Below, piece by piece: positions 4,027 through 22,954 of a stretch of DNA of 39,105 nucleotides. How positions within the stretch are numbered: position 1 is the first letter of the stretch; each line of letters starts with the position of its first letter. The notes beneath the pieces were generated by a model that worked only from the letters and a program-made list of their open reading frames with translations, was not told where the DNA came from and ran no database searches. The stretch spans positions 1 to 39,105 of the forward strand of contig JBMFRC010000028.1 of assembly GCA_049968235.1 (NCBI GenBank), given 5' to 3'. The position numbers and the translations under genes were made by a program. Source of the DNA: Candidatus Hydrogenedens sp. (lineage in GTDB: Bacteria > Hydrogenedentota > Hydrogenedentia > Hydrogenedentales > Hydrogenedentaceae).

Positions 4027-6771
4027 ATGTTAAGTTGGCGAAAAGATTCTGAAATAGATAAAAAAAATGTTAACAAACCAAAAAGCCCGGTGGAAAAAGA
4101 AACCGGGACGAAGGGCAGAAATCAGGAAATCCAAGAGACACGAGGGGGGATGTCTCATAAAAGACTTGGGGATTTACTTCTTGAAGAGAAATTAATAACA
4201 TTAGAACAATTAGCAGAAGCGTTGAAAATTCAATCGGAAGAAGGTGGTTTTTTAGGGAGAATATTGGTAGAGAAGGGTTTCATAAAACAAGATGTTGTGT
4301 CTTCGTGTCTTGCTAAACAGTGTAAAATTCCTCATATTAATCTTGTAGAATATGATATTTCTCCAGAGGTTATACATCTTGTCCCGGAAGAAATTTGCAG
4401 GAGGAGATATTTACTCCCTATAGATAAATTAGGACGGATTTTGACTGTTGCTATGGTTGACCCTTTAGATACTGATGCTCTGGAGGAAGTACGGAATCAT
4501 TGCCCCGATTTAAGAATAAAACCAATACTATGTAGCTGGGATGATTTAAATCGGGCTTTTGATAAAGCATTTCGCAAGAGCAAACAAAGTGGAGATATGA
4601 TATCTGTTCTGACCTCAGATTCATTAGGTTTGAGAAAGGTAGAAACAGAAACATCAAAAGTAGAAAGCTCCGTTGAATCCGAACCTATTCTCCCTGCATC
4701 TATTCTGGAAGAAGTAGAAAAAACAGCCGAGAAGACAAAGGATATATTTCCTCATGAGACCCATATTCCTTCCCGTACTGAAGGAATGGGAGAAAAGACA
4801 ATACAAACTCCCATTGCTACTGAGGTAGTTGTTGATACATCCATTGTGCAGGCAATACATGAACTTCCCCGGATTCTCTCCGAGTCTATTCGCGAATCTC
4901 TCACACAGGTAAATATTAACATTCCGATGCCTCCACCGCCACCTACTCCAACTTCGTCTATTTCTGAAGAACGATTTTCAGAATTAATTCGGGAACTGAG
5001 TACTGTATATAAAGAATCCATTACTCAGGTGGCTCAAAATATATACTTAAAAATAAACGAAGATAGGGTAGAGGGACAAAACCAAATTGCAAGTGTTATT
5101 CAATCAAATATTGCAGGTGTTTTCCAGCAGGCTATTTTCACGATGGTAAGTCAATTGAAGGAAGAAATGTCTGTAAGAGAAAAGAACTTCCAGACAAATA
5201 CAGAACAGTTGGCACAGGTGATACGAAATGGTATAAGTGAGTTATCTAACCAGTTACTAAATTCAGTATCTAATGAAATTCAGAATTCAACTCGTTTTGT
5301 AGCACAAATTCCAGAAGAGGTGGCAAAAACTGTAGAAAAGGTCGTTGAAAAGATAGATAATACCGACCAAAAACTTTCATCACAGATGTCTATTGCAGAA
5401 AAAACGCAAGAAATTCTATTGACTGTAAAAGACTCTATTGTTAATGGACTTCAAACTACATTGGAGTCTGCAATAACCAAACTGGTAGAAGAGTTAAGGC
5501 AAGGAGAGGAAATAGGAGAACCTGACCCTGTTTTGTTAAATCTTACAGAAGCAATTAAAAAATTAGATGAAGCCATTCTTGAAAATCGTAAAGTACAGGA
5601 ATCACAGGTACAAAAATTTGCTCAGATTACAGAATCAGTTATCCAATCCGTTCAGCAGACAACAAACCAGGCAATTAAGGAAATTATTAAAGATAGAGAA
5701 CGGGAACATTTAGAAGTAAAAGAAGAAAAACCCAAAACCGACACCGTTATTCCTGAACTAAAAGAAGTTGTTGAACAATTAAAAGAATCTGTGCAAAAAA
5801 CACAAAAAATGCAAGATGTCCAGACAGAGAAGATAACCCGATTAACAGAAACAACACTGGAATCTGTGCAACAAACAGCCCAGTTGGTTGAAACTCTGAC
5901 TGTAATGGAGGGGAAACGGATAGAAACATTAGAAGAGAAAAAACGAAGGTTATCCGCAGTATCTCCGTTTGGGAATACTCATACAGTTCCACCAGAAGAA
6001 TTAGAGGAATCAGATAAAGAGGTTTGGAAAGCCCTTGAATCCGAACAACCTCTGGAAACACTTACTTTCGATAATTTTTTCCCCGGTTCTGTGAATGCAT
6101 TTACATTTAAATTGAGTAAAGCAGTAGCAGAAAATCCAGGGTCTGAATACAATCCCTATTTTCTATACGGCAATGTAGGTATCGGTAAAACGCATTTAAT
6201 TAGTGCTATTGGCAATGGCATACTTAAAAAACACCCCAAAAAAAGAGTGGGCTATGTATCTGCCAGTCATTTCTCAAGGAGGTTAGCAGAAGCGTTAAAA
6301 GAAGGAGCCTTAGACCTATTTCGTGAAAATTATTGTCATTGGGATGTGTTAATTCTTGATGATATTCAATTTTTAGGGGGAAAGGTAGATGCCCAGGAAG
6401 AATTTTTCCATGTATTTAATGTGCTTCATCAAAGTAAAAGACAAATTATTATTGCAAGTGATAAAGCTCCTGACCGTTTAGGTATGTTAGAACAAAGACT
6501 GGTGTCCCGCTTTTCCAGTGGTATCGTAGCGGAACTAAAATCGCCCGAATGGGAAACGCGAATGCAAATATTGCGAAATCAAATCAAAGAAGCAGGGGTT
6601 CAAGTCCCAGAAGAGGTATTGAGTTTAATTGCAATGCGGGTCCCCAATGATGTGCGTAAAATGATGGGTTCATTAAAAAAGATTATTGCCTTTGCAAAAT
6701 TGGTCGGACAAAGTATTACCTGTGAGATGGCAGATGAAATATTAAGTCATTTAGGAGTTGTAGCAGCGTAA
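4027..6771 (+). CDS. Fusion protein: N-terminal MshE-N/GspE-N (T2SSE_N, c-di-GMP-binding type) domain - ~450-aa Glu/Gln/Lys-rich coiled-coil/low-complexity linker with poly-Pro - C-terminal DnaA domain-III AAA+ ATPase module lacking DnaA domains I/II and the DNA-binding domain IV
   Basis: Residues ~42-180: two tandem 24-aa MshEN-type motifs 'RLGDLLLEEKLITLEQLAEALKIQ' and 'FLGRILVEKGFIKQDVVSSCLAKQ', then 'IPHINLVEYDISPEVIHLVPEEICRRRYLLPI...LTVAMVDPLDTDALEEV' (GspE_N fold signature). Residues ~680-914 (nt 6061-6771) match DnaA domain III: 'LTFDNFFPGSVN', 'YNPYFLYGNVGIGKTHLISAIGNGI' (Walker A), 'DVLILDDIQFLGGKVDAQEEFFHVFNVL' (Walker B/box), 'QIIIASDKAP...EQRLVSRFSSGIVAELKSPEWETRMQIL' (sensor I / Arg finger), 'NDVRKMMGSL' (sensor II). 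ORF ends about 20 aa later, with no HTH domain IV. RBS aaggat 4015-4020; alternative start ATG 4150 directly before the MshEN motif. Confidence 0.8.
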   Translation: MLSWRKDSEIDKKNVNKPKSPVEKETGTKGRNQEIQETRGGMSHKRLGDLLLEEKLITLEQLAEALKIQSEEGGFLGRILVEKGFIKQDVVSSCLAKQCKIPHINLVEYDISPEVIHLVPEEICRRRYLLPIDKLGRILTVAMVDPLDTDALEEVRNHCPDLRIKPILCSWDDLNRAFDKAFRKSKQSGDMISVLTSDSLGLRKVETETSKVESSVESEPILPASILEEVEKTAEKTKDIFPHETHIPSRTEGMGEKTIQTPIATEVVVDTSIVQAIHELPRILSESIRESLTQVNINIPMPPPPPTPTSSISEERFSELIRELSTVYKESITQVAQNIYLKINEDRVEGQNQIASVIQSNIAGVFQQAIFTMVSQLKEEMSVREKNFQTNTEQLAQVIRNGISELSNQLLNSVSNEIQNSTRFVAQIPEEVAKTVEKVVEKIDNTDQKLSSQMSIAEKTQEILLTVKDSIVNGLQTTLESAITKLVEELRQGEEIGEPDPVLLNLTEAIKKLDEAILENRKVQESQVQKFAQITESVIQSVQQTTNQAIKEIIKDREREHLEVKEEKPKTDTVIPELKEVVEQLKESVQKTQKMQDVQTEKITRLTETTLESVQQTAQLVETLTVMEGKRIETLEEKKRRLSAVSPFGNTHTVPPEELEESDKEVWKALESEQPLETLTFDNFFPGSVNAFTFKLSKAVAENPGSEYNPYFLYGNVGIGKTHLISAIGNGILKKHPKKRVGYVSASHFSRRLAEALKEGALDLFRENYCHWDVLILDDIQFLGGKVDAQEEFFHVFNVLHQSKRQIIIASDKAPDRLGMLEQRLVSRFSSGIVAELKSPEWETRMQILRNQIKEAGVQVPEEVLSLIAMRVPNDVRKMMGSLKKIIAFAKLVGQSITCEMADEILSHLGVVAA

Positions 6772-6851
6772 ATCCAAAGAAATATATGTGTTATAGGTTT
6801 CGTTATAATATATTATAAAAATTAAATTATAGTTGCAAATATTTTAGGAGA

Positions 6852-8579
6852 TTGAATGTGAGAATAGCTAAAAAACGATTACCCGAGATGCTTCTCGATT
6901 TAGGAGTTATTAACAAAGAAAAATTAAATGAATGTATAAAAATTCAACAGCAGACAGGTAAAAATCTTCAAGATATATTACTTGAAAAGAAGTATATATC
7001 AGAGGAAGAACTGGTGGAAACACTCAGCGAACAACTTCAAATTCCTCATATCCGTGTATCAAATTATGCAATCCCCAAAGAAGTACTTGCTGAAGTTCCC
7101 GAAGGACTTGCAAAACAATATCAAGTATTACCTATCTCTATAACAGGTGATATTTTAACACTTGCCATGGCAAATCCATTAAATATCCTTGCTTTAGATG
7201 ATATTCGAATGATAACAGGTAAGGAAATTGAGCCTGTGATTGCTATGCCCTCAGAACTTCGTGATGTGATAGAGAAAAACTATAGTGGTGATAGGGCATC
7301 GGAGATATATGCTTCTTTATTAGCAGAACATTCGCAACAAGATGAAGTTGAAGAATTTAAGACTTCATCCGAAGAAGTTGAGGATGTAAGTAAAATTGAA
7401 TCCGTAGAAGAAGATGAACCTGTAAAAAAAATGGCGCGTCTGATTGTTCTGGATGCTCTAGAAAGAGGAGCGTCAGACATACATATTGAGCCATTTGAAA
7501 AAATTATTCGCATTCGCTATCGTGTAGACGGTGCCCTCGAGGAAGCAAAATCACCTCCTAAGTCTATGCAATCAAATCTTATTGCTCGCTTTAAAATTTT
7601 ATCGGGTTGTAGAATTGATGAACATCGTCTCCCACAAGATGGTCGTTTCCGCATAAAATTTCGAGGTAGAGAGATAGATTTCCGTGTAGCATTTCTTCCT
7701 TGTAAATATGGCGAAAAGATAGTATTGCGTGTACTTGATAAGAGCAATTTGGTGTTGAATCTTGAAGATATGGGTTTTGAGCCTCAGCCTCTGGAAGCAT
7801 TATACCATGCGTTGAAATTACCCCATGGCATGATACTTTTAACGGGACCAACAGGAAGTGGTAAAACCACAACACTATACAGTTGCTTAACCCGCCTGAA
7901 TACAATAGAAACAAATATAGTAACTGTAGAAGACCCTATCGAGTATGAATTGTTTGGAATTAATCAGGTGCAGGTGCAATCCCGTATTGGATTTACATTT
8001 GCAGAAGCATTACGCCAAATTTTGCGTCAGGACCCTAATATTATAATGGTCGGGGAAATCCGTGATGGAGAGACAGCAGATATAGCAGTGAAAGCAGCAT
8101 TGACCGGGCACCTTGTGTTAAGCACATTACACACAAACGACGCCGCAGGTGTATTTCCTCGATTAATAGATATGGGTATAGAGCCATTCCTTGTCCAATC
8201 CTCTGTGGCTCTCGCAGCAGCACAACGATTATTAAAACGAGTTTGTAAAGAATGTAAAGAAAATATATCTGTAGATAGAAATGTGTTAGAACGTATTCAA
8301 TTTCATGGATTCCCCCACATTCCTAATCCTCAATTTGTCCGGGGCAGAGGTTGTCCAAAATGTAAGGACTCGGGATATAAAGGACGGATTGCCTGTCTGG
8401 AAGCCATGTTAAATTGGCCTGAATTGCATCCACTGGTTTTGAACCGTGCATCAGGTTATGAAATTAAGAAACAAGCAATTGCATGTGGAATGAAAACACT
8501 GCGACAAAATGCACTTGCCCTTGCTGCACGAAGTTTTACAACGATTGAACAGGTTCTTGAGCATACTATTGCTGATTAA
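6852..8579 (+). CDS. Type II secretion / type IV pilus assembly ATPase of the GspE/PilB/MshE family, with N-terminal MshEN-type domain
   Basis: TTG start with RBS aggag 6846-6850. N-term 'RLPEMLLDLGVINKEKLNECIKIQ' + 'LQDILLEKKYISEEELVETLSEQ' (MshEN-like tandem motifs) and 'IPHIRVSNYAIPKEVLAEVPEGLAKQYQVLPI'; Walker A 'LLTGPTGSGKTTTLYSCL'; Asp/His boxes 'IIMVGEIRDGETADIAVKAALTGHLVLSTLHTND'; tetracysteine Zn motif 'CKECKE...GRGCPKCKDSGYKGR'. Confidence 0.9.
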   Translation: MNVRIAKKRLPEMLLDLGVINKEKLNECIKIQQQTGKNLQDILLEKKYISEEELVETLSEQLQIPHIRVSNYAIPKEVLAEVPEGLAKQYQVLPISITGDILTLAMANPLNILALDDIRMITGKEIEPVIAMPSELRDVIEKNYSGDRASEIYASLLAEHSQQDEVEEFKTSSEEVEDVSKIESVEEDEPVKKMARLIVLDALERGASDIHIEPFEKIIRIRYRVDGALEEAKSPPKSMQSNLIARFKILSGCRIDEHRLPQDGRFRIKFRGREIDFRVAFLPCKYGEKIVLRVLDKSNLVLNLEDMGFEPQPLEALYHALKLPHGMILLTGPTGSGKTTTLYSCLTRLNTIETNIVTVEDPIEYELFGINQVQVQSRIGFTFAEALRQILRQDPNIIMVGEIRDGETADIAVKAALTGHLVLSTLHTNDAAGVFPRLIDMGIEPFLVQSSVALAAAQRLLKRVCKECKENISVDRNVLERIQFHGFPHIPNPQFVRGRGCPKCKDSGYKGRIACLEAMLNWPELHPLVLNRASGYEIKKQAIACGMKTLRQNALALAARSFTTIEQVLEHTIAD

Positions 8580-20666: not shown

Positions 20667-21017
20667 GTGGCTATGGACATGGAAAAACTTAATTATGGGC
20701 ATGTAATCCTCTTCAGAATTTCTGGCAGTCTTGATGAGGAAAATGTATGTAATTTGCGACTTGCCATCGCTGATTACATCAAAGGCAGAAAAAGTTGTGT
20801 GGTCTTGAATCTACAAGATGTAGAGATGATGGACCAGGTTTCCGCGGGATATTTGTTAGAATGTCTGCAAATGGCGAGGAGAAAAGGGGGAGACCTAAAA
20901 TTGGTCAAACCGAGCACCTTCATCGAACAACTATTCCGTTTTTTGGGTATATGGCATTATTTTGAAATATATACAACCGAAACAAGTGCCGTTAACGCAT
21001 TCAAACTAGCCGCATAA
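20667..21017 (+). CDS. STAS-domain anti-sigma-factor antagonist (SpoIIAA/RsbV-like)
   Basis: 116 aa; 'HVILFRISGSLDEENVCNLRLAIADYI...CVVLNLQDVEMMDQVSAGYLLECLQMARRKGGDLKLV' matches the STAS fold and the phosphorylatable-Ser region. RBS aggag 20650-20655. Inserted between mraZ and rsmH. Confidence 0.7.
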   Translation: MAMDMEKLNYGHVILFRISGSLDEENVCNLRLAIADYIKGRKSCVVLNLQDVEMMDQVSAGYLLECLQMARRKGGDLKLVKPSTFIEQLFRFLGIWHYFEIYTTETSAVNAFKLAA

Positions 21018-21081: not shown

Positions 21082-22050
21082 ATGACCAATGAAAAACATC
21101 ATATTCCTGTAATGGCAAATGAGGTAATAAACCTCTTTCAAGAGAGAGAGAAGGGTATTTTTGTTGATGCAACAATAGGTGCTGGTGGACATACTTCTTA
21201 TATTCTCGAATATCTCTCCCCCCGTATGGTTGTGGGGATAGATAGGGACCCCAAAGCCATACAGATATGTTCAAAAAAATTTGAGAAAGAAAAACGAGTA
21301 AAAATATATCACGCAAATTACGCCGATATGGATAAAGTAATAAACATATTAGGTATCCAGGAGGTAGATGGAATTTTAATTGATGCAGGACTTTCCAGTT
21401 TTGCTTTAGATGATGAAGAACGTGGATTTTCTTTTCAGAAAGACGGGCCTCTGGATATGCGTATGAATACAGATGAGAAAGAAACTTTAGGAGATTTCTT
21501 AGACCGGACGGATGAACATACGCTCGCAAAAATTCTAAAAGAATACGGGGATGTTGTAAAGCCTTATTCTATTGCAAAAAAAATTATTATGCGTAGAAGG
21601 GAAGGAAAAATTAGAAAAGTTTCGGATATAGTACAAACGGTATTAGAAGATTTTCATTATGTTAATCATATTCCAGATGAAGTTCGTCAGGTATTTCAAG
21701 CATTAAGAATTGCCGTTAATAATGAATTATTTTTTTTAAGAAAAGGTCTATGGGCAGGATTGAAAATATTGGCAATACATGGACGATTTATCGTAATTAG
21801 TTTTCATTCAGGTGAAGACAGAATTGTCAAATCTATGTTTCGTTTCGTATCGCAACCATTACGGATTTTATCTCCAGAAGGTATTTTAAGAGAACAAATA
21901 TCTCCCATAGCGAGGAATTTAACACCGAAACCCGTCGCTCCTTCATCTGAGGAGATAAAAATAAATTCCAGAGCAAAAAGTGCAAGACTAAGAGCCATTG
22001 AAAAAATTTCAGATACATATATTCAACATTATATTTCAAAAGGGGTATAA
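21082..22050 (+). CDS. rsmH: 16S rRNA (cytosine1402-N4)-methyltransferase RsmH (MraW)
   Basis: 'HIPVMANEVINLF...GIFVDATIGAGGHTSYILE...GIDRDPKAI...DGILIDAGLSSFALDD' are RsmH SAM-MTase motifs. Confidence 0.9.
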   Translation: MTNEKHHIPVMANEVINLFQEREKGIFVDATIGAGGHTSYILEYLSPRMVVGIDRDPKAIQICSKKFEKEKRVKIYHANYADMDKVINILGIQEVDGILIDAGLSSFALDDEERGFSFQKDGPLDMRMNTDEKETLGDFLDRTDEHTLAKILKEYGDVVKPYSIAKKIIMRRREGKIRKVSDIVQTVLEDFHYVNHIPDEVRQVFQALRIAVNNELFFLRKGLWAGLKILAIHGRFIVISFHSGEDRIVKSMFRFVSQPLRILSPEGILREQISPIARNLTPKPVAPSSEEIKINSRAKSARLRAIEKISDTYIQHYISKGV

Positions 22051-22054
22051 AAGA

Positions 22055-22954
22055 ATGAGTAAAAAAGTTATACAAATACGAAAAGATGCCCTGTTCATAA
22101 GTTCCTTATATCTAATCCCGGTGTTTATTGTATCTGGAGTACTGGCTGTGGATTTATATATTAATGTCCAACGCTGGCATTATGATTATTTAACTATACA
22201 GGCAAAAAAGAATATTACACGATGGGTTAAAGATAAAAGTGAATTTAAAAAGCATGATAAATTAAAGGGAATAAGTAAGGATAGTAAAGGTGAACCTTCA
22301 ATAGAGCCTATAGATAATAAAGAAACAAAAGATATAAGGTCCATTTCTTTTTTTTCAAAGATACTCGACAAAATAGTTTTCTTTAGAGAAACCGAAGAGG
22401 AAAATCAAACTCAAGAAGAAGGACAAAATGTGCAAAAAGTAGAAGACATTAACTATGGACTCCAGGCGATGATGGCTGAAATAGAGATGTTGAAAGTTGA
22501 AAAGGTAAGATTAGAAAACTTGCAAAATTTGACAAGATTGGGATTTCAATTAGGTTTGGTGACTCCAAAACCAGAACAGGTAGTACGAATTACATATAGT
22601 AAAGATGAACGGGATAAATTAATACAAACTGCATCATCAGATATGTTATTTCCCCAAAAGCCTAAAAAGATAAATACCTCAGAAACGAAATATGCAGAAG
22701 GTGAAACAGATATTAAACAAAAAATAAAGAGAATAAAGGACTTGTTGAACAAACCTGCAATTTCTATTAAGGAATGGGTTATCAATAAAATTACAACTCC
22801 CGTAATTGCAGAATCAAAAAATAGTGTTAACGAGGAAACAAATGAAAGCAATGTGCCCAAAATGAATAAAGATGAAAAGAATTTACATCCTGATAAAAAT
22901 AATGATGATATAGATATCGATTCATTAACAGAGTTCTTGATGGAGAAACTATAG
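22055..22954 (+). CDS. FtsL-like bitopic cell-division protein with unusually long Lys/Glu-rich coiled-coil C-terminal extension
   Basis: Position between rsmH and ftsI; ATG 22055 (MSKKVIQIRKD) with RBS aaagggg about 22040. Single TM 'ALFISSLYLIPVFIVSGVLAVDLYI' followed by coiled-coil 'LQAMMAEIEMLKVEKVRLENLQNL'. 299 aa versus ~100-120 for typical FtsL. The listed ORF start 21998 overlaps the rsmH 3' end. Confidence 0.55.
   Translation: MSKKVIQIRKDALFISSLYLIPVFIVSGVLAVDLYINVQRWHYDYLTIQAKKNITRWVKDKSEFKKHDKLKGISKDSKGEPSIEPIDNKETKDIRSISFFSKILDKIVFFRETEEENQTQEEGQNVQKVEDINYGLQAMMAEIEMLKVEKVRLENLQNLTRLGFQLGLVTPKPEQVVRITYSKDERDKLIQTASSDMLFPQKPKKINTSETKYAEGETDIKQKIKRIKDLLNKPAISIKEWVINKITTPVIAESKNSVNEETNESNVPKMNKDEKNLHPDKNNDDIDIDSLTEFLMEKL

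What the first reader, a model, noticed from the sequence alone, without database searches (positions are those of the whole stretch)
4027..6771. MshEN (c-di-GMP-binding GspE-N type) domain fused via a ~450-aa coiled coil to a DnaA domain-III AAA+ module that lacks any DNA-binding domain
The protein joins two things that do not normally occur together.
- **N-terminal domain (seen in sequence).** Residues ~42-180 carry both tandem 24-residue motifs of the published MshEN c-di-GMP-binding consensus (RLGxx[LVI][LVI]xxG[LVIF][LVI]xxxxLxxxLxxQ): 'RLGDLLLEEKLITLEQLAEALKIQ' and 'FLGRILVEKGFIKQDVVSSCLAKQ'. The rest of the GspE_N fold signature follows.
- **C-terminal module (seen in sequence).** The last ~235 residues are unmistakably DnaA domain III (YNPYFLYGNVGIGKTHL, LILDDIQFLGGK..QEEFFHVFN, sensor I, the Arg-finger context RLVSRF, sensor II VRKMMGSL). 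The ORF stops exactly where DnaA domain IV (HTH) would begin. The Hda-type clamp-binding N-terminus is also absent.
- **Middle.** ~450 aa of Glu/Gln/Lys/Thr-rich predicted coiled coil with a PMPPPPPTPT stretch.

Walker A/B, the Arg finger and sensor II look intact, so this is probably an active ATPase.

Inference: this is neither the replication initiator nor a normal secretion ATPase. A plausible role is a c-di-GMP-gated DnaA-like oligomeriser (Hda-like regulator of initiation, or an ATPase co-opted for another filament or assembly process). I am not aware of this architecture being described.
Basis: partly seen in the sequence, partly recalled or inferred. Interest (0 to 1): 0.85.

Follow-up and report, generated by a model that had tools for sequence, protein, structure and literature searches.

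The report
c-di-GMP sensor–DnaA ATPase in pilus operon
A whole bacterial phylum (Hydrogenedentota) keeps, directly in front of its pilus-motor gene pilB, an undescribed protein that joins a probable c-di-GMP sensor domain to the ATPase core of the replication initiator DnaA without its DNA-binding parts, so it more likely regulates pili than replication.

Summary
ORF 4027-6771 (914 aa) has an MshEN domain with a c-di-GMP motif, about 490 aa of linker, and a DnaA domain III AAA+ module that ends where domain IV would begin. Profiles, AlphaFold2 and Foldseek all agree.

It is not a one-off or a frameshift. More than 380 protein clusters and 66 GTDB species representatives, essentially all Hydrogenedentota, share the architecture and the same C-terminal end.

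The most informative new fact is context. In all 65 species loci with downstream sequence, the gene lies directly upstream of pilB (median gap 52 nt). pilT-pilS-pilR usually follow.

The fusion keeps both motif glycines needed for c-di-GMP binding. The adjacent PilB has lost G40 in 62/62 loci and G11 in 47/61.

The AAA+ module keeps the ATP-binding and arginine-finger residues in all 120 members. It has lost or changed the DnaA residues for single-strand origin binding and AID-1. It has no clamp-binding motif, so it is not Hda.

Best reading (about 0.4): a c-di-GMP-responsive cofactor of the type IV pilus motor that acts in trans, with a DnaA-derived ATP-dependent assembly module.

I could not test whether a canonical dnaA or c-di-GMP synthases exist in these genomes.

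The parts
4027..6771 (+). Complete gene for the MshEN-linker-DnaA domain III fusion protein (914 aa plus stop)
   Evidence: ORF list. Identical to database protein P0001, 'DnaA ATPase domain-containing protein [Candidatus Hydrogenedens sp.]', on a 39105-bp contig.
4027..4152 (+). N-terminal tail, aa 1-42, Lys/Glu-rich, predicted disordered and variable in the family
   Evidence: AF2 pLDDT about 30. Columns are poorly conserved or gapped.
4162..4320 (+). MshEN_N: the 53-residue c-di-GMP-binding element. Motif I is aa 46-69 (RLGDLLLEEKLITLEQLAEALKIQ), the spacer is 70-74, and motif II is aa 75-98 (FLGRILVEKGFIKQDVVSSCLAKQ).
   Evidence: NF053729 scores 59.5 bits against a cut-off of 38. Motif definition from PMC5013675. 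Family conservation of the key residues.
4321..4590 (+). MshEN_C (N1D-like alpha/beta subdomain), aa 99-188. This is the most conserved part of the N-terminal half (LPIDKLGRILTVAMVDPLD, KP, W171).
   Evidence: PF05157 scores 62 bits at aa 100-186. Near-invariant columns. AF2 pLDDT about 90. Foldseek to MshE 5HTL gives TM 0.70-0.73 and to PilF GSPII-A TM 0.81.
4612..4632 (+). Conserved short peptide [TS]x[AE]S[LF]G[LF] (aa 196-202, TSDSLGL) just after the MshEN domain. Possible docking motif.
   Evidence: S199 in 95, G201 in 102 and L202 in 90 of about 110 aligned members. Function unknown.
4594..4968 (+). Predicted disordered linker, aa 190-314, including the Pro-rich stretch PMPPPPPTPT (aa 299-308)
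   Evidence: AF2 pLDDT below 50. Length is highly variable in the family, whose members span 444-1202 aa.
4966..5952 (+). Five long alpha-helices (aa 314-642) carrying seven copies of a family-specific 24-aa repeat (consensus LAEVIRESIGQVVQQALATVVVQL)
   Evidence: AF2 secondary structure, pLDDT 50-75. Repeat HMM finds 0-7 copies per member, and 99 of 120 members have at least one.
5812..6057 (+). Conserved pre-AAA+ segment (aa 596-677): a helix Q..RLA.IAEAAL.SVQQT.QLVE, then SVxPFG, the invariant Asp663, and ALESE.PLE
   Evidence: Column conservation in 120 members. No counterpart in canonical DnaA domain II.
6058..6768 (+). DnaA domain III (AAA+ IIIa plus lid IIIb), aa 678-914. It ends at the equivalent of E. 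coli DnaA residue ~371, about where domain III ends (domain IIIb = 296-373).
   Evidence: PF00308 at 190 bits, TIGR00362 at 301 bits. PDB sequence hits. Foldseek TM 0.93 to 8BV3. Residue map to E. coli DnaA.
6169..6195 (+). Walker A, GNVGIGKTH (aa 715-723)
   Evidence: GxVGxGKTH is present in 120 of 120 members.
6349..6366 (+). Walker B, LILDDI (aa 775-780)
   Evidence: Invariant in 120 of 120 members.
6496..6513 (+). Box VII, RLVSRF (aa 824-829). R824 corresponds to E. coli R281 and R828 to the Arg finger R285.
   Evidence: Both arginines are invariant in 120 of 120 members. Role of Arg285 from PMC6868365.
6649..6669 (+). Sensor II region, DVRKMMG (aa 875-881). R877 corresponds to E. coli R334. 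The flanking family-specific changes are N332 to D and E335 to K.
6772..6851 (+). 80-nt spacer between the fusion gene and pilB, with no terminator-like site on the + strand
   Evidence: The family-wide median spacing is 52 nt, and 59 of 64 loci have 150 nt or less.
6852..8579 (+). pilB-type type IV pilus assembly ATPase (575 aa). Its own MshEN motifs are degenerate: RLP for RLG and NLQ for RLG.
   Evidence: TIGR02538 at 620 bits, PF00437 at 431 bits, PF05157 at 77 bits. Alignment with the fusion N-domain gives 34% identity. Motif state across 62 loci.

Best explanation
The gene encodes a conserved accessory component of the type IV pilus (T4P) motor operon of the phylum Hydrogenedentota. It has three working parts.

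1. An MshEN domain. Its N-subdomain keeps the residues needed to bind c-di-GMP. Its very highly conserved C-subdomain (N1D-like) is of the kind that, in PilB/GspE ATPases, contacts the PilM/GspL stator or neighbouring N1D domains.
2. A linker of variable length: a disordered stretch plus helical repeats.
3. A DnaA-derived AAA+ module. It retains ATP binding and the head-to-tail arginine-finger interface. It has shed domains I and IV and the residues DnaA uses to hold single-stranded origin DNA.

Proposed mechanism (inferred):
- The adjacent PilB has lost the glycines its own MshEN needs for c-di-GMP binding. The fusion protein would therefore supply c-di-GMP sensing in trans, as FimX/PilZ do for PilB in Pseudomonas and Xanthomonas.
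- c-di-GMP binding to MshEN_N would change how MshEN_C docks on PilB or the pilus base.
- The AAA+ module would act as an ATP-dependent self-assembling switch or scaffold. Initiator-clade AAA+ proteins (DnaC, ORC/Cdc6, IstB) typically act as matchmakers for other machines.
- The net effect would be to gate PilB recruitment or activity.

Shown: the architecture, its conservation, the operon context, and the residue patterns.
Inferred: ligand binding, the partner, and the direction of regulation.
For: Architecture and fold:
- Searches confirm both domains by profile and by fold.

Family size and constancy:
- 381 clusters at E <= 1e-10. The best 120 all carry PF05157 + PF00308.
- 118 of 120 end 196-210 residues after the start of Walker A.
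- At least 72 further representatives at the 50% identity level carry both domains.

Synteny:
- 66 GTDB species representatives carry the fusion.
- pilB lies immediately downstream on the same strand in all 65 loci that have downstream sequence.
- pilT-pilS-pilR follow in 52 of them.
- The median gap to pilB is 52 nt, and the window has no + strand terminator between the two genes.

Division of labour in c-di-GMP motifs:
- The fusion keeps G11 in 55/58, G40 in 52/59, and Q32 and Q61 in most members.
- The adjacent PilB has G40 in 0/62 (Pro, Ala or Gln instead), G11 in 14/61 (mostly Pro), and R38 replaced by Ser or Asn.
- Published mutagenesis shows that these changes remove or weaken binding: G11I and the XpsE substitutions (PMC5013675); S39 and A41 in PilF GSPII-A (PMC12002112).

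Precedents:
- Precedent for c-di-GMP cofactors of PilB that act in trans, and for N1D-PilM contacts: PMC11656802.

Loss of origin-specific DnaA features (residue roles from PMC6868365):
- R227 becomes Cys in 108/120.
- V211 is variable.
- R245 becomes Glu or Asp in 120/120.
- E204 becomes Ser in 120/120.
- Domains I and IV are absent.
Against: - No experiment supports any step. Synteny shows association, not mechanism.
- Motif II starts with Phe/Tyr, not Arg. Replacing that Arg with Ser abolished binding in an engineered PilF domain, and even a perfect consensus did not guarantee binding in PilF GSPII-A.
- The AF2 N-domain resembles the non-binding PilF GSPII-A (TM 0.81) slightly more than c-di-GMP-bound MshE (TM 0.70-0.73).
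- No GGDEF-type gene was seen in 1.28 Mb of Hydrogenedentota flanks. This is a weak sample, but c-di-GMP synthesis in the phylum is unverified.
- The adjacent PilB still passes the NCBIfam c-di-GMP_motif threshold (48 bits against a cut-off of 38).
- Sequence identity to canonical DnaA domain III is 41-47% (41-42% to B. subtilis). Together with the invariant Arg-finger interface, this is just as expected if the partner were DnaA itself.
- In the window's own clade, pilT/pilS/pilR are not adjacent and scpA lies two genes downstream.
Confidence: 0.4

Rival explanations
1. A c-di-GMP-gated regulator of chromosome replication. The DnaA-like module would insert into or cap the oligomer of the genuine DnaA through its arginine finger and ATP site, stimulating hydrolysis or blocking filament growth. 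The MshEN domain would make this depend on c-di-GMP. The pilB linkage could then mean that surface or pilus status is coupled to the cell cycle.
For: - The module is far closer to DnaA than to any other AAA+ protein: 210 bits and TM 0.93 to B. subtilis DnaA domain III, and 44-47% identity to many canonical DnaAs.
- Walker A/B, sensor I, R281, the R285 finger and sensor II R334 are invariant in 120 of 120 members. These are the elements that contact a neighbouring protomer's ATP.
- AID-2 changes only from Leu to Ile.
- A precedent links pili, c-di-GMP and initiation in Caulobacter (PMC7196804, listed).
- scpA lies two genes downstream in the window.
Against: - No clamp-binding motif in 0/120 members, so the known Hda/RIDA route is excluded.
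- AID-1 Arg227, which assists DnaA-DnaA interaction, is Cys in 108/120 members. E204, N332 and E335, invariant in the canonical sample, are replaced family-wide.
- The gene is never next to dnaA, dnaN or any domain I/IV coding sequence in 69 loci, but always next to pilB.
- scpA proximity is confined to one genus-level clade (L004-L009).
Confidence: 0.25
2. A DNA-uptake (competence) factor. T4P take up DNA, and the DnaA-like module, tethered at the pilus base through MshEN, would coat or hand over incoming single-stranded DNA in an ATP-dependent filament, as DnaA does on the unwound origin strand.
For: - T4P operon context.
- The initiator-clade AAA+ fold with its ISM is retained.
- A basic residue is kept at the K243 position: R in 95 and K in 24 of 120.
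Against: - The two residues shown to bind ssDUE in E. coli are not kept. V211 becomes A/K/S/T and R245 becomes E/D in 120/120.
- No competence genes (comEA, comEC, dprA) were seen beside it.
- There is no DNA-binding domain.
Confidence: 0.1
3. A general polar or membrane scaffold whose AAA+ module is an inert or structural remnant. The linkage with pilB would only be a historical trace of the duplication that created the MshEN domain.
For: - The fusion MshEN is most similar to the neighbouring PilB N-domain (34% identity, 89.7 bits), which is consistent with a local duplication origin.
- The linker is long and variable, with helical repeats.
Against: - Seventy-odd residues of the AAA+ module, including every catalytic residue, are invariant across members that are only about 40-50% identical overall. 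A remnant would not be expected to show that.
- Synteny persists across the whole phylum with operon-like spacing.
Confidence: 0.1

Closest known systems
DnaA (chromosomal replication initiator), domain III
   Same: - The AAA+ module matches in sequence and fold: 41-42% identity to B. subtilis DnaA, TM 0.93, rmsd 1.8 A.
- Walker A/B, sensor I, box VII R281/R285 and sensor II are all kept.
   Different: - No domain I, no domain II equivalent and no domain IV HTH.
- Scores below the TIGR00362 cut-off.
- Family-wide replacement of E204, V211, R227 and R245.
- Encoded in a pilB operon, not next to dnaN.
Hda / HdaA (DnaA-related inactivator, RIDA)
   Same: A DnaA-type AAA+ protein without a DNA-binding domain that retains an arginine finger.
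   Different: - No N-terminal clamp-binding motif (0/120).
- TIGR03420 scores 102.6 against a cut-off of 194.8.
- The fold match is much weaker than to DnaA (TM 0.66-0.77, rmsd 3.6-5.5 A).
- It carries a 680-aa N-terminal extension with an MshEN domain.
MshE / PilB / PilF MshEN (GSPII) c-di-GMP receptor domains
   Same: - Two 24-residue motifs with a 5-residue spacer, followed by the alpha/beta N1D-like subdomain.
- 69.7 bits to MshE 5HTL and 117.7 bits to PilF.
- Located in a pilus gene cluster.
   Different: - The output domain is a DnaA AAA+ module, not the T2SSE secretion ATPase.
- Motif II begins with Phe/Tyr, not Arg.
- This partner is not among the MshEN fusions listed in the founding paper or its supplement.
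FimX / PilZ cofactors of PilB (Pseudomonas, Xanthomonas)
   Same: The functional logic is the same. Where PilB itself cannot bind c-di-GMP, a separate c-di-GMP-binding protein provides the signal to the extension motor.
   Different: There is no homology: no EAL, GGDEF or PilZ domains. Here the sensor is a PilB-like MshEN domain and the second module is an AAA+ ATPase. The interaction with PilB is only inferred.
PilF GSPII-A domain of Thermus thermophilus (non-binding MshEN)
   Same: The adjacent Hydrogenedentota PilB shows the same kinds of deviation (Q32H, R38S, G40A/P) that make GSPII-A unable to bind c-di-GMP.
   Different: This applies to the neighbour, not to the fusion protein. The fusion keeps G11, G40, Q32 and Q61.
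Other domain-IV-less DnaA domain III fusions seen here (uncharacterised)
   Same: The DnaA AAA+ module is used as a C-terminal or N-terminal cassette without the HTH domain. Examples are TPR-repeat giants of Sumerlaeota, N-terminal DnaA-III proteins of Auribacterota, and tandem DnaA-III proteins.
   Different: They have different partner domains, no MshEN domain, and no pil genes within 10 kb. In the family HMM they score below the MshEN fusions.

Membership tests
MshEN domain (c-di-GMP receptor, PF05157 / NF053729) | Profile match above the curated thresholds | tested here: met
   PF05157 scores 62 bits against 23.1. NF053729 scores 59.5 bits against 38.
MshEN domain (c-di-GMP receptor, PF05157 / NF053729) | Motif I RLGxx(L/V/I)(L/V/I)xxG(L/V/I)(L/V/I)xxxxLxxxLxxQ with the six key residues R, L, G, L, L, Q | tested here: met
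   aa 46-69 give R46, L47, G48, L62, L66, Q69. The turn Gly is Lys in the window protein. In the family R/K is present in 46/58, L10 in 56, G11 in 55 and Q32 in 44. Definition.
MshEN domain (c-di-GMP receptor, PF05157 / NF053729) | Motif II, same consensus, five residues after motif I | tested here: inconclusive
   The spacing is exact (aa 75-98). L76, G77, G84, V91, L95 and Q98 fit. The first residue is Phe (F/Y in 58/59), which lies outside even the relaxed [RKPN] set. An aromatic side chain could stack on guanine, but this is untested. Arg to Ser at this site abolished binding in PilF.
MshEN domain (c-di-GMP receptor, PF05157 / NF053729) | Four-helix MshEN_N plus alpha/beta MshEN_C fold | tested here: met
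   AF2 pLDDT about 90. Foldseek to 5HTL gives TM 0.70-0.73 and to 9G1W TM 0.81.
MshEN domain (c-di-GMP receptor, PF05157 / NF053729) | Measured binding of c-di-GMP | not testable with these tools
   Needs ITC, DRaCALA or NMR. Sequence consensus alone is not sufficient.
DnaA, chromosomal replication initiator (TIGR00362) | Whole-protein score above the equivalog cut-off | tested here: not met
   301.1 bits against a cut-off of 343.9. Only model positions 41-338 of 437 are matched.
DnaA, chromosomal replication initiator (TIGR00362) | Domain I (DnaA_N, PF11638) | tested here: not met
   No Pfam hit. No tblastn hit in the window or in 69 family loci, while the control loci were hit.
DnaA, chromosomal replication initiator (TIGR00362) | Domain III AAA+ with Walker A/B, sensor I/II and the Arg finger | tested here: met
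   PF00308 at 190 bits. All listed residues are invariant in 120 members.
DnaA, chromosomal replication initiator (TIGR00362) | DnaA-specific H/B motifs (Val211/Arg245) and AID-1 (Arg227) | tested here: not met
   V211 becomes A/K/S/T. R245 becomes E in 116 and D in 4. R227 becomes Cys in 108 of 120. Residue roles.
DnaA, chromosomal replication initiator (TIGR00362) | Domain IV helix-turn-helix (Bac_DnaA_C, PF08299) for DnaA boxes | tested here: not met
   The ORF ends at the equivalent of E. coli residue ~371. There is no PF08299 hit. No domain IV is found in any frame within 10 kb in 69 loci.
Hda (TIGR03420, DnaA regulatory inactivator) | Equivalog score above the cut-off | tested here: not met
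   102.6 bits against a cut-off of 194.8.
Hda (TIGR03420, DnaA regulatory inactivator) | N-terminal beta-clamp-binding motif (QL[SP]LPL / QLxLF type) | tested here: not met
   0 of 120 members carry any of four motif variants outside the AAA+ module.
Hda (TIGR03420, DnaA regulatory inactivator) | DnaA-like AAA+ with Arg finger and no domain IV | tested here: met
   This feature is shared, but it does not by itself define Hda.
PilB/GspE secretion ATPase (T2SSE, PF00437) | C-terminal T2SSE hexameric ATPase domain | tested here: not met
   No PF00437 hit in the fusion. The neighbouring gene has it at 431 bits.
IstB / DnaC helicase-loader-type AAA+ | Equivalog or subfamily score above the cut-off | tested here: not met
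   NF038214 scores 53.7 against 200. DnaC NF005931 scores 16.6 against 357. The Pfam IstB_IS21 hit at 38.5 bits lies under the 190-bit Bac_DnaA hit. No transposase is adjacent.
T4P motor operon component (operational: conserved gene of the pilB-pilT-pilSR cluster) | Conserved same-strand adjacency to pilB across species | tested here: met
   65 of 65 species loci with downstream sequence. Median gap 52 nt.
T4P motor operon component (operational: conserved gene of the pilB-pilT-pilSR cluster) | Physical or genetic interaction with the pilus machinery | not testable with these tools
   Needs pull-downs, two-hybrid, multimer modelling or genetics.

The most novel reading that the evidence does not exclude
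The protein is a direct physical coupler between the type IV pilus machine and the replication initiator. Its MshEN half would dock at the pilus base in a c-di-GMP-dependent way. Its DnaA-derived AAA+ half would co-assemble with or sequester ATP-DnaA through the conserved arginine-finger interface. Surface contact or pilus activity would then gate chromosome replication in one polypeptide. Caulobacter achieves this link only through a multi-step phosphorelay.
Probability: 0.12. Interest if true: 0.9.

Novelty: new variant of a known kind. Interest (0 to 1): 0.62.

Why it matters
- It adds a new output class to the MshEN family of c-di-GMP receptors.
- It shows that the DnaA AAA+ core has been recruited outside replication genes. 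Here it is a fixed member of a pilus-motor operon throughout a widespread, uncultured phylum that is common in digesters, sediments and groundwater.
- The sensor motif is kept in the accessory protein and lost in PilB. This gives a clean, testable prediction about how c-di-GMP reaches the pilus motor.
- If the AAA+ module acts on PilB, it would extend the 'matchmaker' role of initiator-clade AAA+ proteins to a secretion-type ATPase. If it acts on DnaA, it would be a new route from c-di-GMP to replication.
- Practically, many of these proteins are annotated as 'chromosomal replication initiator protein DnaA'. That is wrong and can mislead origin prediction in metagenome-assembled genomes.

Tried and rejected
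1. Canonical dnaA in the same genomes. I searched the 50%-clustered library with the AAA+ module. I looked up names of the ten closest canonical DnaAs and scored all representatives with a family HMM. The closest canonical DnaAs are about equally distant (250-265 bits). Those that carry names come from other lineages (Chloroflexota, Ruminococcaceae/Oscillospiraceae, Lachnospiraceae, Acidimicrobiia, and one labelled Thermoplasmata archaeon). No Hydrogenedentota DnaA could be singled out. The tools cannot read whole genomes, so the question stays open. I ran no further search on it because the results cannot be targeted to a taxon.

2. Frameshift or hidden domain IV. Rejected.

3. Self-BLAST of the linker found no repeats. 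A seeded HMM did find them.

4. GGDEF or HD-GYP genes in the fetched Hydrogenedentota DNA. No GGDEF was found, and the HD-GYP regex gave only noise. This is uninformative about whole genomes.

5. Literature searches. I tried MshEN + DnaA, Hydrogenedentes + pili/DnaA, DnaA paralogues + c-di-GMP, and Hydrogenedent* + diguanylate cyclase. Nothing relevant came back.

6. IstB or mobile-element origin. Rejected on scores and context.

7. Rfam and tRNA scans of the window were empty.

8. The promoter scan was no better than shuffled sequence.

Full report
**1. The observation**

The window holds an ORF at 4027-6771 on the + strand, 914 aa.

N-terminal domain:
- Pfam places MshEN (PF05157, 62 bits, cut-off 23.1) at aa 100-186.
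- NCBIfam places the MshE-type c-di-GMP motif (NF053729, 59.5 bits, cut-off 38) at aa 46-98.
- PDB sequence searches hit the N-terminus to PilF, PilB and MshE MshEN domains.

C-terminal module:
- Pfam places Bac_DnaA (PF00308, 190 bits) at aa 678-835.
- The DnaA equivalog TIGR00362 aligns only to model positions 41-338 of 437, at 301 bits against a cut-off of 343.9. Hda scores only 102.6 bits against a cut-off of 194.8.
- PDB sequence searches hit B. subtilis DnaA domain III (210 bits), T. maritima DnaA (198 bits) and A. aeolicus DnaA (163 bits). Hda scores only 49 bits.

Structure:
- An AlphaFold2 model built on 120 family sequences is confident (pLDDT about 90) for aa 45-188 and 680-910.
- It is disordered for aa 1-42 and 190-314.
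- It gives five long helices at aa 314-642 with pLDDT 50-75.
- Foldseek superposes the C-terminal module on B. subtilis DnaA domain III at TM 0.93, rmsd 1.8 A, 41% identity. Hda matches only at TM 0.66-0.77.
- The N-domain superposes on MshE with c-di-GMP at TM 0.70-0.73 and on PilF GSPII-A at TM 0.81.

The description is therefore right, with two refinements. The middle is about 125 aa of disorder plus about 330 aa of long helices, and coiled-coil pairing was not demonstrated. Motif II starts with Phe, not Arg.

**2. Not an artefact and not a singleton**

- The window is a complete 39,105-bp contig of a Candidatus Hydrogenedens MAG. The protein is in the database at 100% identity.
- The protein search found 381 clusters at E <= 1e-10. 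All of the best 120 carry PF05157 + PF00308, with lengths of 550-1049 aa. Every cluster that has an organism name is Hydrogenedentes or Hydrogenedentota.
- In all 120, Walker A (GxVGxGKTH), Walker B (LILDDI) and RL[VI]SRF are invariant. In 118 of 120 the protein ends 196-210 residues after the start of Walker A.
- A scan of one genome per GTDB species found the full-length fusion in 66 species representatives, L004-L069. A few odd labels look like submitter-taxonomy or binning artefacts: 'uncultured Nitrospirales', one 'Bathyarchaeia' and one 'Poribacteria'. L009, labelled Nitrospirales, is 72% identical and shares the Hydrogenedens-specific gene order.
- At the 50% identity level, at least 72 further representatives have both the MshEN-like N-domain and a terminal domain III. 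These include compact forms of 449-454 aa.
- A six-frame tblastn with domains I and IV of nine canonical DnaAs hit the seven canonical control loci that contain them. It found nothing in the window or in any of the 69 Hydrogenedentota loci.
- The frameshift explanation is therefore excluded.

**3. Context is the main new result**

- The window itself is ordinary chromosome. It carries a GT4 glycosyltransferase, the fusion, pilB, a lipoprotein, scpA, a UPF0102 gene, sugar-metabolism genes, a DUF1559 pseudopilin-like gene, and a dcw cluster running mraZ, a STAS gene, mraW, ftsI, murE, murF, mraY, murD, ftsW. It has no tRNA or Rfam hits.
- Two distant relatives on 5.1-Mb and 7.9-Mb chromosomes show the order fusion-pilB-pilT-pilS-pilR.
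- Across the 66 species loci, a pilB-type gene follows on the same strand in all 65 that have downstream sequence. pilT-pilS-pilR follow directly in 52.
- The gap to pilB has a median of 52 nt, and 59 of 64 loci have 150 nt or less. In the window it is 80 nt, with no + strand terminator-like site.
- The upstream neighbours vary.
- No dnaA, dnaN or domain IV sequence lies within 10 kb in any locus.

**4. The c-di-GMP motifs are kept in the fusion and lost in PilB**

The founding paper defines two 24-residue motifs joined by five residues. The key residues are R9/L10/G11/L25/L29/Q32 and R38/L39/G40/L54/L58/Q61. G11I abolishes binding. The non-binding XpsE carries G11V, R38G and G40L, among other changes (PMC5013675).

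Motif state across the loci:

| Position | Fusion | Adjacent PilB |
|---|---|---|
| G11 | kept in 55/58 | kept in 14/61 (Pro in 36) |
| G40 | kept in 52/59 | kept in 0/62 (Pro 29, Ala 14, Gln 13) |
| L10 | kept in 56/58 | not examined |
| Q32 | kept in 44/59 | often His (27/62) |
| Q61 | kept in 46/59 | not examined |
| R38 | Phe/Tyr in 58/59 | Ser/Asn in 53/62 |

- The PilB changes are the same kinds that make PilF GSPII-A a non-binder. In that domain, restoring Arg at S39 was required for any binding, and A41G was required for high affinity (PMC12002112).
- In the window, PilB reads RLP...Q and NLQ...Q, while the fusion reads RLG...Q and FLG...Q.
- This pattern suggests that the fusion, not PilB, is the c-di-GMP receptor of the cluster.

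Caveats:
- The effect of Phe/Tyr at the first position of motif II is untested.
- A perfect consensus did not guarantee binding in PilF GSPII-A.
- PilB still passes the NCBIfam motif threshold.
- I found no GGDEF gene in 1.28 Mb of fetched Hydrogenedentota DNA. This is a biased sample that says little about whole genomes.

**5. What is left of DnaA**

I mapped the family onto E. coli DnaA numbering and checked the landmark residues. Residue roles are taken from PMC6868365.

| E. coli residue | Role | State in the 120 fusion members |
|---|---|---|
| K178 | Walker A | invariant |
| D235/D236 | Walker B | invariant |
| D269 | sensor I | invariant |
| R281 | box VII | invariant |
| R285 | arginine finger | invariant |
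| R334 | sensor II | invariant in 119 of 120 (one alignment gap) |
| V211 | H-motif, ssDUE binding | variable: A, K, S or T |
| R245 | B-motif, ssDUE binding | Glu or Asp in 120/120 |
| R227 | AID-1 | Cys in 108/120 |
| E204 | (see note) | Ser in 120/120 |
| N332 | flanks sensor II | Asp |
| E335 | flanks sensor II | Lys |

- E204, N332 and E335 are invariant in my sample of canonical DnaAs. Their replacements are family-wide.
- From my own recollection, not verified here, E. coli E204Q lowers the intrinsic ATPase.
- No clamp-binding motif exists in any member.
- The module therefore looks like a working ATP-binding, head-to-tail-oligomerising AAA+ unit that has lost the origin-specific equipment. 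It is not Hda.

**6. Other conserved parts**

- MshEN_C (aa 99-188) is the most conserved stretch of the N-terminal half. It contains LPIDKLGRILTVAMVDPLD, K165-P166 and W171, all at or near invariance. In PilB and GspE this subdomain (N1D) is thought to contact PilM or GspL (PMC11656802).
- A short S[LF]G[LF] peptide follows it.
- A conserved helix, an SVxPFG motif and the invariant Asp663 precede the AAA+ module.
- The middle carries 0-7 copies of a 24-aa helical repeat, seven of them in the window protein. Its length varies greatly, from about 60 to about 800 aa. It therefore behaves as a spacer.

**7. Interpretation**

- The best-supported reading is a T4P-motor accessory protein. It would be a c-di-GMP receptor acting in trans for a PilB whose own receptor site has decayed. 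This parallels in logic, not in ancestry, the FimX/PilZ cofactors of PilB.
- The DnaA-derived AAA+ module would provide ATP-dependent assembly.
- I put this at about 0.4. Only the association is shown; the mechanism is inferred.
The AAA+ interface that would contact DnaA is perfectly conserved, and identity to canonical DnaAs is high (44-47%).
- It is weakened by the missing clamp motif, the AID-1 loss and the exclusive pilB linkage.
- A hybrid in which pilus and c-di-GMP status is coupled directly to DnaA is the most novel reading that the evidence does not exclude.
- An ssDNA-uptake role is disfavoured by the H/B-motif losses.

**8. Novelty**

- The MshEN founding paper and its supplement list REC, HD-GYP, CheA, CheX, cyclase, kinase, glycosyltransferase and AAA_31 partners, but not DnaA.
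- Only one paper in the library mentions both MshEN and DnaA, and it is unrelated.
- Other searches found nothing. The library is incomplete, so this is absence of evidence.
- The proteins are present in public databases under generic or wrong names, including 'chromosomal replication initiator protein DnaA'.
- I class it as a new variant of known kinds: a new MshEN output and a new DnaA paralogue class.

**9. Open points**

- I could not establish whether they encode diguanylate cyclases.
- The chromosomes OY782877.1 and OW818658.1 would settle both within minutes.

Noticed in passing
L073:5510-10759, L074:627-7079, L075:523-3060, L076:5366-10723, L081:4430-10885: Sumerlaeota (BRC1) encode giant TPR-repeat proteins of 846-2152 aa that end in a DnaA domain III module without domain IV. 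No pil genes lie within 10 kb. This is another uncharacterised re-use of the DnaA AAA+ core.
   Followed up: partly
L070:9938-11794, L071:9947-11824; proteins P0210, P0211, P0221-P0223: Proteins of about 600-690 aa with DnaA domain III at the extreme N-terminus, followed by a tail of about 350-440 aa with no Pfam match and no domain IV. The labelled genome locus (L071) is Auribacterota; L070 is labelled only 'Bacterium'.
   Followed up: partly
proteins P0128 (674 aa), P0122 (1876 aa), P0127 (1990 aa) and about 40 other representatives: Proteins with two DnaA domain III modules in one chain (two Bac_DnaA stretches, 418 bits in P0128). Their origin and function are unknown.
   Followed up: no
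window:6852-8579 and the pilB genes of L004-L069: The PilB of this phylum has systematically lost the motif glycines of its own MshEN domain. G40 is present in 0/62 and G11 in 14/61. It still passes the NCBIfam c-di-GMP_motif threshold, so automatic annotation would call it a c-di-GMP binder.
   Followed up: yes
L009, L011, L019, L022, L026, L031, L032, L035, L042, L046, L050, L058, L059, L060, L066, L068: Record titles call these MAGs 'uncultured Nitrospirales/Nitrospiraceae', 'Bathyarchaeia archaeon' or 'Poribacteria'. They nevertheless carry the Hydrogenedentota-type fusion and gene order. L009 is 72% identical and has the genus-specific neighbours. The labels are probably submitter-taxonomy or binning errors.
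   Followed up: partly
window:22-858: ORF with an (EGTPEGTPEGVV)n low-complexity N-terminus followed by three PASTA domains (PF03793, 91.7 bits). It is probably cut by the contig start.
   Followed up: partly
window:984-2717: A 577-aa protein with no Pfam match. It has an N-terminal signal-like segment, an HELTHGIGF (HExxH) zinc-protease-like motif, an EGEG-rich linker and a C-terminal hydrophobic anchor.
   Followed up: no
window:20184-22954: In the dcw cluster, a STAS-domain gene (20667-21017) sits between mraZ and mraW. The gene in the ftsL position (21998-22954, 318 aa) has no Pfam match and is much longer than a usual FtsL.
   Followed up: no
window:4966-5952 (aa 314-642) and family members: A family-specific 24-aa helical repeat (consensus LAEVIRESIGQVVQQALATVVVQL). 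It is present in 0-7 copies per protein and correlates only weakly with protein length (r = 0.25).
   Followed up: partly
window plus L001-L069 (1.28 Mb): No ORF with a G[GAS][DE]EF signature was found in any frame. The sample is mostly the same neighbourhood repeated, so it does not show that the phylum lacks diguanylate cyclases. It does leave c-di-GMP synthesis unverified.
   Followed up: partly
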